The notes under the pieces were generated by a model that was not told the DNA's origin, made no database searches, and saw nothing but the letters and a program-made list of their open reading frames with translations. From Eledone cirrhosa (lineage: Eukaryota), in assembly GCA_964016885.1 (NCBI GenBank), contig OZ024742.1, positions 9,238,001 to 9,302,000 on the forward strand: DNA of 64,000 nt, in the 5' to 3' direction. Position 1 is the stretch's first letter. The number at the start of each line of letters is the position of its first letter. The position numbers and the translations under genes are program-made. Positions 27,089 through 31,038 of this stretch are shown here, piece by piece.

Positions 27089-27295
27089 ACAAGGTTTAGT
27101 AAATAATGAAAAAGTTTCAAAATAAATTTTAAAAAATTGACTTTACCTACTATAGTTACCTTTACCGATCGGTTTCGAATCCCAAAAATAAAACGTAGGC
27201 CATACGGCCTTCGTTGCAAAGAGAGATTCTCGTCAGAAGGTTCTTTTCATTCAAAGAATATAAAATTCCTGAATTTAAATCACAAACTAGCGCTA
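27089..27295 (-). mobile_element. 5' inverted partial copy of the 483-bp unit, including an HHR at 27158-27241
   Basis: Reverse complement of 27456-27662. Confidence 0.92.
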
Positions 27296-27509
27296 CTACT
27301 ACCTCCACAAACGTTGAGAACAAACCGGGTCATTCCGACTGCTGCTGATAACAGCGGTGGCTAGTTTGACCTACCTCCTTTTGCCTCTATCTTAACTACG
27401 GCCCTTGATAAACCTGTTCTACATCATCCACTCTCATCCCAGGAACAGTCTTTGATAGCGCTAGTTTGTGATTTAAATTCAGGAATTTTATATTCTTTGA
27501 ATGAAAAGA

Positions 27510-27593
27510 ACCTTCTGACGAGAATCTCTCTTTGCAACGAAGGCCGTATGGCCTACGTTTTATTTTTGGGATTCGAAACTGATCGGTAAAGGT
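27510..27593 (+). ncRNA. Hammerhead ribozyme, unit 1
   Basis: ACCTT CTGACGA GAATCTC...GGGATTC GAAAC TGATCG GTA AAGGT. Confidence 0.88.
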
Positions 27594-27992
27594 AACTATA
27601 GTAGGTAAAGTCAATTTTTTAAAATTTATTTTGAAACTTTTTCATTATTTACTAAACCTTGTTTATATTTGTTCTGGCTCGTTAATTTATTAACCCGCTA
27701 TTGAACCACACTGGCACTTGGTTGGACAATACATGCGTACCTTGGCGCCTTGTGCGTGAAAGGACGTATTTCATATTACTACTACCTCCACAAACGTTGA
27801 GAACAAACCGGGTCATTCCGACTGCTGCTGATAACAGCGGTGGCTAGTTTGACCTACCTCCTTTTGCCTCTATCTTTACTACGGCCCTTGATAAACCTGT
27901 TCTACATCATCCACTCTCATCCCAGGAACAGTCTTTGATAGCGCTAGTTTGTGATTTAAATTCAGGAATTTTATATTCTTTGAATGAAAAGA

Positions 27993-28076
27993 ACCTTCTG
28001 ACGAGAATCTCTCTTTGCAACGAAGGCCGTATGGCCTACGTTTTATTTTTGGGATTCGAAACCGATCGGTAAAGGT
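27993..28076 (+). ncRNA. Hammerhead ribozyme, unit 2
   Basis: ACCTT CTGACGA GAATCTC...GGGATTC GAAAC CGATCG GTA AAGGT. Confidence 0.92.
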
Positions 28077-28475
28077 AACTATAGTAGGTAAAGTCAATTT
28101 TTTAAAATTTATTTTGAAACTTTTTCATTATTTACTAAACCTTGTTTATATTTGTTCTGGCTCGTTAATTTATTAACCCGCTATTGAACCACACTGGCAC
28201 TTGGTTGGACAATACATGCGTACCTTGGCGCCTTGTGCGTGAAAGGACGTATTTCATATTACTACTACCTCCACAAACGTTGAGAACAAACCGGGTCATT
28301 CCGACTGCTGCTGATAACAGCGGTGGCTAGTTTGACCTACCTCCTTTTGCCTCTATCTTTACTACGGCCCTTGATAAACCTGTTCTACATCATCCACTCT
28401 CATCCCAGGAACAGTCTTTGATAGCGCTAGTTTGTGATTTAAATTCAGGAATTTTATATTCTTTGAATGAAAAGA

Positions 28476-28559
28476 ACCTTCTGACGAGAATCTCTCTTTG
28501 CAACGAAGGCCGTATGGCCTACGTTTTATTTTTGGGATTCGAAACCGATCGGTAAAGGT
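28476..28559 (+). ncRNA. Hammerhead ribozyme, unit 3
   Basis: Same as unit 2. Confidence 0.92.
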
Positions 28560-28958
28560 AACTATAGTAGGTAAAGTCAATTTTTTAAAATTTATTTTGA
28601 AACTTTTTCATTATTTACTAAACCTTGTTTATATTTGTTCTGGCTCGTTAATTTATTAACCCGCTATTGAACCACACTGGCACTTGGTTGGACAATACAT
28701 GCGTACCTTGGCGCCTTGTGCGTGAAAGGACGTATTTCATATTACTACTACCTCCACAAACGTTGAGAACAAACCGGGTCATTCCGACTGCTGCTGATAA
28801 CAGCGGTGGCTAGTTTGACCTACCTCCTTTTGCCTCTATCTTTACTACGGCCCTTGATAAACCTGTTCTACATCATCCACTCTCATCTCAGGAACAGTCT
28901 TTGATAGCGCTAGTTTGTGATTTAAATTCAGGAATTTTATATTCTTTGAATGAAAAGA

Positions 28959-29042
28959 ACCTTCTGACGAGAATCTCTCTTTGCAACGAAGGCCGTATGG
29001 CCTACGTTTTATTTTTGGGATTCGAAACCGATCGGTAAAGGT
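28959..29042 (+). ncRNA. Hammerhead ribozyme, unit 4
   Basis: Same as unit 2. Confidence 0.92.
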
Positions 29043-29441
29043 AACTATAGTAGGTAAAGTCAATTTTTTAAAATTTATTTTGAAACTTTTTCATTATTTA
29101 CTAAACCTTGTTTATATTTGTTCTGGCTCGTTAATTTATTAACCCGCTATTGAACCACACTGGCACTTGGTTGGACAATACATGCGTACCTTGGCGCCTT
29201 GTGCGTGAAAGGACGTATTTCATATTACTACTACCTCCACAAACGTTGAGAACAAACCGGGTCATTCCGACTGCTGCTGATAACAGCGGTGGCTAGTTTG
29301 ACCTACCTCCTTTTGCCTCTATCTTTACTACGGCCCTTGATAAACCTGTTCTACATCATCCACTCTCATCTCAGGAACAGTCTTTGATAGCGCTAGTTTG
29401 TGATTTAAATTCAGGAATTTTATATTCTTTGAATGAAAAGA

Positions 29442-29525
29442 ACCTTCTGACGAGAATCTCTCTTTGCAACGAAGGCCGTATGGCCTACGTTTTATTTTTG
29501 GGATTCGAAACCGATCGGTAAAGGT
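29442..29525 (+). ncRNA. Hammerhead ribozyme, unit 5
   Basis: Same as unit 2. Confidence 0.92.
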
Positions 29526-29924
29526 AACTATAGTAGGTAAAGTCAATTTTTTAAAATTTATTTTGAAACTTTTTCATTATTTACTAAACCTTGTTTATAT
29601 TTGTTCTGGCTCGTTAATTTATTAACCCGCTATTGAACCACACTGGCACTTGGTTGGACAATACATGCGTACCTTGGCGCCTTGTGCGTGAAAGGACGTA
29701 TTTCATATTACTACTACCTCCACAAACGTTGAGAACAAACCGGGTCATTCCGACTGCTGCTGATAACAGCGGTGGCTAGTTTGACCTACCTCCTTTTGCC
29801 TCTATCTTTACTACGGCCCTTGATAAACCTGTTCTACATCATCCACTCTCATCCCAGGAACAGTCTTTGATAGCGCTAGTTTGTGATTTAAATTCAGGAA
29901 TTTTATATTCTTTGAATGAAAAGA

Positions 29925-30008
29925 ACCTTCTGACGAGAATCTCTCTTTGCAACGAAGGCCGTATGGCCTACGTTTTATTTTTGGGATTCGAAACCGATCG
30001 GTAAAGGT
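29925..30008 (+). ncRNA. Hammerhead ribozyme, unit 6
   Basis: Same as unit 2. Confidence 0.92.
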
Positions 30009-30407
30009 AACTATAGTAGGTAAAGTCAATTTTTTAAAATTTATTTTGAAACTTTTTCATTATTTACTAAACCTTGTTTATATTTGTTCTGGCTCGTTAA
30101 TTTATTAACCCGCTATTGAACCACACTGGCACTTGGTTGGACAATACATGCGTACCTTGGCGCCTTGTGCGTGAAAGGACGTATTTCATATTACTACTAC
30201 CTCCACAAACGTTGAGAACAAACCGGGTCATTCCGACTGCTGCTGATAACAGCGGTGGCTAGTTTGACCTACCTCCTTTTGCCTCTATCTTTACTACGGC
30301 CCTTGATAAACCTGTTCTACATCATCCACTCTCATCCCAGGAACAGTCTTTGATAGCGCTAGTTTGTGATTTAAATTCAGGAATTTTATATTCTTTGAAT
30401 GAAAAGA

Positions 30408-30491
30408 ACCTTCTGACGAGAATCTCTCTTTGCAACGAAGGCCGTATGGCCTACGTTTTATTTTTGGGATTCGAAACCGATCGGTAAAGGT
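30408..30491 (+). ncRNA. Hammerhead ribozyme, unit 7
   Basis: Same as unit 2. Confidence 0.92.
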
Positions 30492-31038
30492 AACTATAGT
30501 AGGTAAAGTCAATTTTTTAAAATTTATTTTGAAACTTTTTCATTATTTACTAAACCTTGTTTATATTTGTTCTGGCTCGTTAATTTATTAACCCGCTATT
30601 GAACCACACTGGCACTTGGTTGGACAATACATGCGTACCTTGGCGCCTTGTGCGTGAAAGGACGTATTTCATATATATATATATATGTATATATATATAT
30701 ATGTATATATATATATATATATATATATATATATATATATATATATATATATATATATATATATATATATGTATATATATGTATATATATATATGTATAT
30801 ATATGTATGTATATATATATGTATATATATGTATATATATATGTTTATATATGTATGTATATATATTCTTTTCTTCTGTTTCTTTTTCTCGCCCTCTGGA
30901 TCGCACAAGCTCTCTCTCTTTTCTTTTAGATAGCTCCTTCAATATCTCACTGGAGTTATATCTCCCTCCCTCCCTCTGTCCCTCTCTAACCTCTACCCTA
31001 CACTTCCCACTGTCTCTCTTTATCCCCTCCACAGCGAA

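What the first reader, a model, noticed from the sequence alone, without database searches (positions are those of the whole stretch)
27089..30674. Young 7 x 483-bp hammerhead-ribozyme array: a retrozyme-like circular-RNA system
Seen: seven nearly identical 483-bp units with no credible protein. Each has an intact type I HHR: stem I ACCTT/AAGGT, CTGACGA, extended stem II (GAATCTC/GGGATTC with inner AACG-AGGCC/GGCCT-CGTT), and GAAAC-CGATCG-GTA. Predicted cleavage is after 27588 + n x 483. The array has a 5' inverted HHR-containing arm and sits in (TA)n. Known: metazoan non-LTR retrozymes are tandem HHR repeats processed to small linear and circular RNAs, and PLEs carry HHRs and make 5' inversions. 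Inference: transcripts self-process into 483-nt monomers or circles that are copied by Naiad PLE RT/endonuclease in trans. I know of no described cephalopod family with this unit.
Basis: partly seen in the sequence, partly recalled or inferred. Interest (0 to 1): 0.92.

Follow-up and report, generated by a model that had tools for sequence, protein, structure and literature searches.

The report
Young ribozyme-bearing parasite of Penelope retrotransposons
This is one insertion of a young, non-coding repeat that carries a self-cutting RNA motif and is spread through an animal genome, most likely by borrowed Penelope-type retrotransposon enzymes; the kind is known (retrozyme), but its copies record unusually clearly how such insertions are made.

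Summary
Observation confirmed: seven 483-bp units (27294-30674), each with a type I hammerhead core, an inverted arm (27083-27295), (TA)n on both sides, no ORF. It is one insertion of a dispersed family (1,308 exact ribozyme 25-mers in G000), a new member of the known non-LTR retrozymes.

Added here from 101 typed insertions. The element has two fixed 3' ends, A and B, 108 nt apart (the Penelope 'tail'). Of 65 two-armed insertions, 64 use one A and one B. Both arms and all units of a locus share one haplotype (0.4-0.7% mismatch at polymorphic sites, 27% between loci). Arms stop near the predicted cut 3.5 times too often, yet read through it about nine times in ten.

Best reading: a Penelope-type enzyme primes both target strands from two sites of one RNA type; the template passes through a monomer (circle or nicked circle, about 0.55). 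The Naiad partner is not supported: Naiads lack canonical hammerheads. A Hydra-clade partner is my best guess, but no autonomous partner was found. Cleavage, expression and circles are untested.

The parts
27294..30674 (+). Long arm: seven 483-bp units; its 3' end is site B, joined to (TA)n
27083..27295 (-). Inverted arm, 213 bp; its 3' end is site A, joined to (TA)n; 2-nt overlap with the long arm at the head-to-head junction
27510..27593 (+). Type I hammerhead of unit 1 (stem III palindrome broken by C>T at 27580); predicted cut after 27588
27993..28076 (+). Type I hammerhead of unit 2, repeated every 483 bp to 30408-30491: stem I ACCTT/AAGGT, core CTGACGA, 53-nt stem II, GAAA, palindromic stem III ACCGATCGGT, predicted cut after 28071
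27158..27241 (-). Complete hammerhead in the inverted arm; predicted cut after 27163
27589..28071 (+). Predicted cut-to-cut monomer, 483 nt, 39% G+C (inferred, not shown to exist)
28082..28137 (+). Long AU-rich hairpin between the cut and site A (unit 2; in every unit); a similar stretch occurs in sister families
28130..28151 (+). Site A (first fixed 3' end), internal copy; also at 27668 + n x 483; 246 exact A-(TA)n junctions in G000
30567..30674 (+). 108-nt tail between site A and site B (terminal copy; internal copy 28152-28259); site B varies 108-116
27032..27089 (.). (TA)n target, left part
30671..30866 (.). (TA)n target, right part

Best explanation
A non-autonomous Penelope-like retroelement of the non-LTR retrozyme kind. 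Shown: a non-coding 483-bp unit (tail, spacer, hammerhead, hairpin) forms dispersed insertions in (TA)n, with two fixed 3' ends and variable 5' ends. Inferred: its RNA is bound by the RT/GIY-YIG protein of an autonomous PLE, which nicks both strands of a (TA)n target and primes one cDNA at site A and the other at site B of the same RNA haplotype. Each cDNA runs a variable distance (median about one unit, up to 4.3 kb), usually through the ribozyme cut site; the two cDNA ends are then joined head to head. In the window the B-primed arm ran seven units and the A-primed arm 213 nt. Less certain (about 0.55): the template is a single monomer, a ligated circle or a cut monomer held shut by stem I, so arrays are rebuilt at each insertion. 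The ribozyme most likely cuts as a dimer through its palindromic stem III. Partner clade: Hydra about 0.55, another C-terminal-endonuclease PLE about 0.35, Naiad under 0.1.
For: Dispersed and young: 181 matches, most 98-100% identical, among 40 scored of 1644 candidates; 1308 exact ribozyme 25-mers. Ends: 64 AB, 1 AA, 0 BB among 65 two-armed insertions; 29 of 29 in the set not chosen for an end (P 2e-9 if arms chose freely at even odds), 35 of 36 in the set chosen for an A end. The same AB pairing in 6 of 6 two-armed sister-family insertions and 4 of 4 of an autonomous 777-aa PLE. 165 of 166 primed ends abut (TA)n (61 were selected for it). Two RT start sites define the PLE tail, and both strands are extended, in vitro (PMC11167929). 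Haplotypes at 28 polymorphic sites: 20 of 4785 mismatches within arms, 13 of 1854 between arms, 142187 of 528115 between loci; 9 variants private to a locus are fixed in all covering segments, 5 of them in both arms; 25 array-wide haplotypes in 38 multi-unit loci. Ribozyme under constraint: 0.24-0.27% deviation in core and stems I/III against 1.4-3.0% in spacer, tail and stem II; three different stem III palindromes and covarying stem I across sister families. Arm stops within -7..+13 nt of the cut: 26 seen, 7.5 expected, best of 463 windows; 16 against 4.9 in the second set alone. An autonomous Hydra-type family has the same order hammerhead, end A, ~78-nt tail, end B, ORF.
Against: No autonomous element sharing these ends was found (92/95); best blastn of the unit against 60 loci of two young autonomous families was E 0.3 apart from one true copy. 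Homogeneous arrays would also come from a linear multimer transcript of a homogeneous parent. The stop peak is broad: 8 of the 26 stops lie 3-7 nt beyond the cut (2.0 expected), which a cleaved end cannot explain and a pause at the ribozyme fold can. No excess of stops after one full turn from the arm's own start (A arms 5 against 4.7, B arms 2 against 2.7). Units 4 and 5 of the window share a variant, and 6 partial patterns occur overall, so some local duplication or multimer copying happens. Five loci have arms that disagree at a polymorphic site. In vitro, ribozyme cleavage was dispensable for PLE insertion, 8 of 9 Xenopus retrozyme dimers did not cleave, and PLEs without hammerheads also make head-to-tail arrays. 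The deviation counts are not independent of shared descent.
Confidence: 0.88

Rival explanations
1. Same element and same PLE enzymes, but the template is an uncut linear multimer read through a parent array; the hammerhead is a passenger or works at another step, and arrays regrow by template switching or unequal exchange.
For: 242 read-throughs of the cut site against 26 stops near it; broad stop peak with 8 stops past the cut; cleavage dispensable in vitro; the AAGGU strand of stem I pairs about 0.38 of the time with a second ACCUU beside site A in the predicted ensemble; adjacent units sharing a variant.
Against: Private variants fixed in both arms and 25 array-wide haplotypes need repeated one-unit bottlenecks and regrowth; no variant was heterogeneous in the same pattern in several loci beyond scattered singletons; the core is conserved.
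Confidence: 0.4
2. The arrays are stacked terminal repeats (pLTRs) of 5'-truncated autonomous PLE copies, not a family with its own life cycle.
For: PLE insertions are typically 5'-truncated partial tandems with inverted arms and a tail (PMC8557442).
Against: The joint between units is the same in all loci and no ORF is attached in 100 regions; a genome-wide pattern for a different continuation after site B gave only low-complexity hits and two further copies of the unit.
Confidence: 0.05
3. Single insertions that grew in place as satellite DNA by unequal crossing-over (the route suggested by Li et al. 2026).
For: Units 4 and 5 share a variant; 6 partial patterns; proposed in bioRxiv 10.64898/2026.07.22.740005.
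Against: Both inverted arms are often multimeric and share private variants; units within arrays differ by 0-1.6%, many by none; 5' ends fall anywhere in the unit, as truncated cDNAs do. It can add units but cannot be the main route.
Confidence: 0.05
4. Inverted structure made by self-priming fold-back on an antisense template, as proposed for rotifer Penelope elements.
For: Proposed in PMC3846280 (passages); 7 of 63 two-armed junctions are near-symmetric.
Against: 56 of 63 junctions are not symmetric, and the outer ends are fixed sense-strand sites in strict A/B pairing.
Confidence: 0.04
5. Assembly artefact: one or two units expanded by the assembler.
For: Near-identical units next to long (TA)n; no long reads seen.
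Against: Units carry distinct variants; tandem joints in raw reads and contigs of other samples; many similar arrays elsewhere.
Confidence: 0.02

Closest known systems
Metazoan non-LTR retrozymes (Cervera and de la Pena 2020, PMC7229834; Li, Clavereau and Pollet 2026, bioRxiv 10.64898/2026.07.22.740005)
   Same: Non-coding, low-GC tandem units, each with a type I hammerhead; dispersed; proposed non-autonomous PLE derivatives; known in a mollusc (mussel, 350-390 bp).
   Different: 483-nt unit (above the 150-450 bp of the 2020 paper, inside the 51-972 bp of the 2026 one); 53-nt stem II; insertion ends, inverted arms and tail were not analysed in the text I read of those papers; RNA and cleavage shown there, not here.
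PLE pseudo-LTR with tail and inverted 5' copy (Craig 2021 PMC8557442; Arkhipova 2013 PMC3846280; Frangieh 2024 PMC11167929)
   Same: Two fixed 3' ends, tail on one end of an inverted insertion, 5' truncation, AT-rich target, hammerhead upstream of the start sites.
   Different: Tail 108 nt rather than 30-40; no ORF; the one-A-one-B pairing is counted here (64 of 65), whereas in print it is 'often' or 'optionally' at one end, and in vitro no strand difference in start site was seen.
Hydra-clade PLEs (Craig 2021)
   Same: Canonical hammerhead, (TA)n insertion; a young 714-aa family in G000 has the RWK, DKT and CxCX5C motifs and the same hammerhead, A, tail, B order.
   Different: No significant DNA similarity between the unit and the Hydra families examined; partnership not shown.
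Naiad PLEs
   Same: (TA)n preference in octopus; inverted and tandem insertions with tail.
   Different: Lack canonical hammerheads; reported as inactive remnants in cephalopods; no likeness seen.

Membership tests
Non-LTR retrozyme | Type I hammerhead in at least two consecutive tandem units | tested here: met
   7 of 7 units have the core; 6 of 7 the perfect stem III palindrome; not matched by Rfam
Non-LTR retrozyme | Short unit (150-450 bp in 2020; 51-972 bp in 2026), G+C under 45-50% | tested here: met
   483 bp, 39% G+C; slightly above the older range
Non-LTR retrozyme | No coding capacity | tested here: met
   No frame of 100 aa or more in the array; six-frame translation full of stops
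Non-LTR retrozyme | Dispersed at many loci | tested here: met
Non-LTR retrozyme | No primer-binding site or polypurine tract | not tested
   No search was run
Non-LTR retrozyme | Target-site duplication longer than 4 bp when present | tested here: inconclusive
   Insertions lie in (TA)n, which hides a duplication
Non-LTR retrozyme | Self-cleavage of the RNA | not testable with these tools
   Only indirect: conservation and stop excess near the cut
Non-LTR retrozyme | Expressed as linear and circular monomers | not testable with these tools
   No run on record as RNA was listed
Non-autonomous PLE | Fixed 3' ends with optional tail, 5' truncation, head-to-head inverted arm | tested here: met
Non-autonomous PLE | Terminal sequence shared with an autonomous PLE of the same genome | tested here: inconclusive
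   None found in partial searches; the genome could not be searched exhaustively
Naiad-dependent element | Naiad-type terminus, without canonical hammerhead | tested here: not met
   Canonical type I fold present; no likeness to Naiad_Ovul or Naiad_Obim 3' ends by eye; no Naiad motif in window and 110 loci
Hydra-dependent element | Canonical hammerhead, (TA)n target, and ends recognised by a Hydra protein | tested here: inconclusive
   First two met and layout alike; two sister-family copies joined directly to Hydra ORFs, but 0 of 10 other copies of that Hydra subfamily end that way

The most novel reading that the evidence does not exclude
The family is a genome-scale footprint of rolling-circle target-primed reverse transcription: one dimeric PLE protein primes the two target strands from two fixed sites of a single ribozyme-cut, monomer-length circular or nicked-circular RNA and rolls round it. 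That would explain together retrozyme arrays, the PLE tail at one end only, and PLE inverted repeats, and the genome holds several sister families and young intact PLE proteins with which to rebuild the reaction.
Probability: 0.45. Interest if true: 0.72.

Novelty: new member of a known kind. Interest (0 to 1): 0.5.

Why it matters
How retrozymes are copied into the genome, and how Penelope-like elements make tandem and inverted insertions, are stated as open in the papers read (PMC8557442; PMC11167929; bioRxiv 10.64898/2026.07.22.740005, whose link to PLEs rests on co-occurrence and trees in vertebrates). Here a very young family gives insertion-level evidence: PLE-type ends on a retrozyme, a strict one-A-one-B rule, one haplotype per insertion. 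It offers a 483-nt RNA, a simple (TA)n target and intact candidate proteins for a direct in vitro test. The element itself is an ordinary genomic parasite with no sign of a host function.

Tried and rejected
Rfam gave no hammerhead match; only (TA)n-driven microRNA hits, rejected.

Sequencing runs: no RNA holder listed; this says nothing on expression. Run X5 is of unknown kind and was not taken as RNA.

Partner search, all negative or ambiguous: long ORFs in 39 + 60 regions (PLE ORFs nearby belong to separate insertions); pattern for another continuation after site B, 6 hits, 21 in the reversed control; tail motif followed by a Hydra RWK codon pattern, 5 hits, none a Hydra ORF; the 714-aa Hydra and 777-aa families have other terminal repeats; Hydra C-terminal motif followed by the stem III pattern, 6 hits and 1 control, of which L204 and L205 join a Hydra ORF to a sister-family repeat, but 10 of 10 further copies of that subfamily lack it, so these are chimeras, not the partner. 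A Pfam family I recalled for PLEs is not in the library; Pfam does not recognise the Hydra protein.

Stalls after one full turn, expected if RT meets its own cDNA: not seen; B arms stop near site A 11 times against 5.1 (P 0.016, one of ten windows tried, not relied on). Pauses at the 3' side of the long hairpin or of stem II: not seen.

Dropped before counting: one 22-bp fragment in L137 and matches under 90% identity or 20 bp; positions 425-452 and 471-483 and segment edges in the haplotype counts; the first 45 nt of each arm in the stop test. Four insertions scored as one-armed show a short B arm in the flank text (L056, L123, L127, L139) and were not added to the AB count.

Earlier scan notes by sequence and by place: nothing. 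Literature: no paper on a cephalopod retrozyme in searches; no count of A/B pairing in searches; subscription papers (for example the 2005-2006 Penelope reviews) are outside the library, and the 2026 preprint's supplements could not be seen.
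Full report
The observation. The array is as described: 7.0 copies of 483 bp at 27294-30674, differing by at most two bases, with a 213-bp inverted arm at 27083-27295 and (TA)n on both sides. Each unit holds a type I hammerhead: stem I ACCTT/AAGGT, core CTGACGA, a 53-nt stem II, GAAA, and a stem III whose ten bases ACCGATCGGT are a perfect palindrome. 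Unit 1 has C>T in that palindrome. None of 5000 shuffles gives such a motif. Rfam does not match it. A palindromic stem III is the mark of hammerheads that work as dimers (PMC4209133, passages); the predicted intermolecular duplex is -16.6 kcal/mol. Cleavage itself is not shown.

The family. The unit is dispersed in G000 (3.0 Gb): 181 matches among 40 scored of 1644 candidates, 1308 exact ribozyme 25-mers, 246 exact junctions of one end with (TA)n, 30 of the other end in its youngest form. The tandem joint is also in raw reads and contigs of other samples, including a 513-nt contig with 7 differences from a run under another organism label.

Two fixed ends. Every arm ends at site A (window 28151 in register) or site B (28259, varying by up to 8 nt), 108 nt apart, and 165 of 166 such ends abut (TA)n (61 were selected so). 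Among 65 two-armed insertions 64 have one A and one B, one has two A, none two B. In the set not chosen for an end this is 29 of 29 (P 2e-9 for free choice at even odds). The window is an example: short arm from A, long arm from B. Sister families (6 of 6) and an autonomous 777-aa PLE (4 of 4) do the same. In print, the PLE 'tail' is a 30-40 bp extension often at one end only (PMC8557442, passages, section 11 and supplement parts 2 and 24; PMC3846280, passages), and it lies between two RT start sites used by a protein that extends both target strands and is predicted to be a dimer (PMC11167929, main text). So A and B are very probably the two start sites (inference), and this ties the retrozyme to PLE machinery at the level of single insertions.

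One haplotype per insertion. At 28 polymorphic sites, segments mismatch at 0.42% within an arm, 0.70% between arms and 26.9% between loci; nine locus-private variants are fixed in all covering segments, five in both arms. There are 25 array-wide haplotypes in 38 multi-unit loci. All seven window units carry a T where the 39 other first-set loci have C (seen once more in L104). Lineages therefore pass repeatedly through one unit and are multimerised again. A circle does this simply, but a homogeneous parent array plus occasional regrowth also could. Against a pure circle: window units 4 and 5 share a variant, six partial patterns exist, five loci have discordant arms, and arms do not stall after one turn.

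The ribozyme's trace. Arms stop within -7..+13 nt of the predicted cut 26 times against 7.5 expected, the best of 463 windows; the window was chosen on the first set and holds in the second (16 against 4.9). But 130 of 166 arms read through at least one cut site (242 passes), and 8 stops lie just beyond the cut. This fits a template that is sometimes cut or nicked there, or a pause at the fold. Core and stems I/III deviate 0.24-0.27% against 1.4-3.0% elsewhere (copies share descent). By my reading of the positions, three of the four common stem II polymorphisms turn a pair into G-U and the fourth lies in a mismatch. Sister families keep stem I paired with other letters and use three different stem III palindromes. 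Cautions from print: PLE insertion in vitro did not need cleavage; 8 of 9 Xenopus dimers did not cleave; hammerhead-free PLEs also form arrays.

The partner. Naiads lack canonical hammerheads and are remnants in cephalopods, and nothing Naiad-like was seen. G000 has at least two young autonomous families with many intact ORFs: a 714-aa Hydra-type family, one copy of which lies in the window, and a 777-aa family with RT and GIY-YIG. The Hydra family has the same order of parts with a ~78-nt tail, and short likenesses at both ends by eye; the 777-aa family has a ~35-nt tail. Neither shares significant sequence with the unit. Two sister-family copies are fused to Hydra ORFs but are chimeras. The partner is unidentified; Hydra is a best guess.

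Comparison and verdict. It meets every testable feature of non-LTR retrozymes (PMC7229834, passages and section 14; bioRxiv 10.64898/2026.07.22.740005, introduction to discussion; supplements not seen), so it is a new member of a known kind. I found no described cephalopod retrozyme and no count of the end pairing, within a library that lacks most subscription papers. Identity as a PLE-mobilised retrozyme 0.88; monomer or circular template about 0.55; interest 0.5, earned by the testable mechanism rather than by the element.

Noticed in passing
window 26468-27020: A separate two-armed insertion of a sister family (hammerhead with palindrome ACTAATTAGT on the minus arm, site A left, site B right); tandem elsewhere with 542-556-bp units (L043, L102).
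   Followed up: partly
L035:4120-5000, L046:4900-6050, L047:600-1350: A second sister family, 477-486-bp tandem units, same hammerhead-hairpin-tail layout, stem III ACCGATCGGT or ACTGATCAGT.
   Followed up: partly
window 43313-45394 (+): Copy of a Hydra-type PLE with a frameshift and a stop; the family has many intact 714-aa ORFs at 97-98% identity; Pfam does not recognise the protein.
   Followed up: partly
L118:960-2741; L171-L200: Very young PLE family with 777-aa ORFs (150 scored matches at 99%), long (TG/TA)n-rich 3' region, hammerhead-like motif with a variant core, ~35-nt tail.
   Followed up: partly
L204:1500-2000, L205:1500-2000, L105:197-540: Retrozyme-type 5' ends joined without (TA)n to Hydra-type sequence in the same orientation; template switches or deletions at insertion.
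   Followed up: partly
window 28072-28151: A second ACCTT just before site A can pair with the AAGGT of stem I (predicted 0.38 against 0.60), a possible switch between ribozyme fold and extended hairpin.
   Followed up: partly
window 1570, 1812(-), 5961, 7688(-), 40939(-), 43017, 47096, 50275(-), 53567(-), 53665, 56310-56380: At least ten further hammerhead-like motifs of several other families, often in inverted pairs ending in (TA)n; the genome is dense with PLE termini.
   Followed up: no
window 26000-26350: Inverted repeat around a (TA)n tract, resembling the tail region of the second sister family.
   Followed up: no
window 12560-15760 (-): LTR-retrotransposon pol (RT, RNase H, integrase by Pfam) split by a stop.
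   Followed up: no
window 30934-34950 (+): LINE directly right of the array: endonuclease-RT ORF by Pfam, preceded by a charged ORF with a cysteine motif.
   Followed up: no
run X4, laid on window 27868-28350: A 513-nt contig under a different organism label covers a full unit and the tandem joint with 7 differences; close relative, label issue or transfer not resolved.
   Followed up: no
G000:C1:149205194-149210787: Ten-unit plus inverted two-unit array with 485-bp period, an older subfamily seen only in pattern listings.
   Followed up: no
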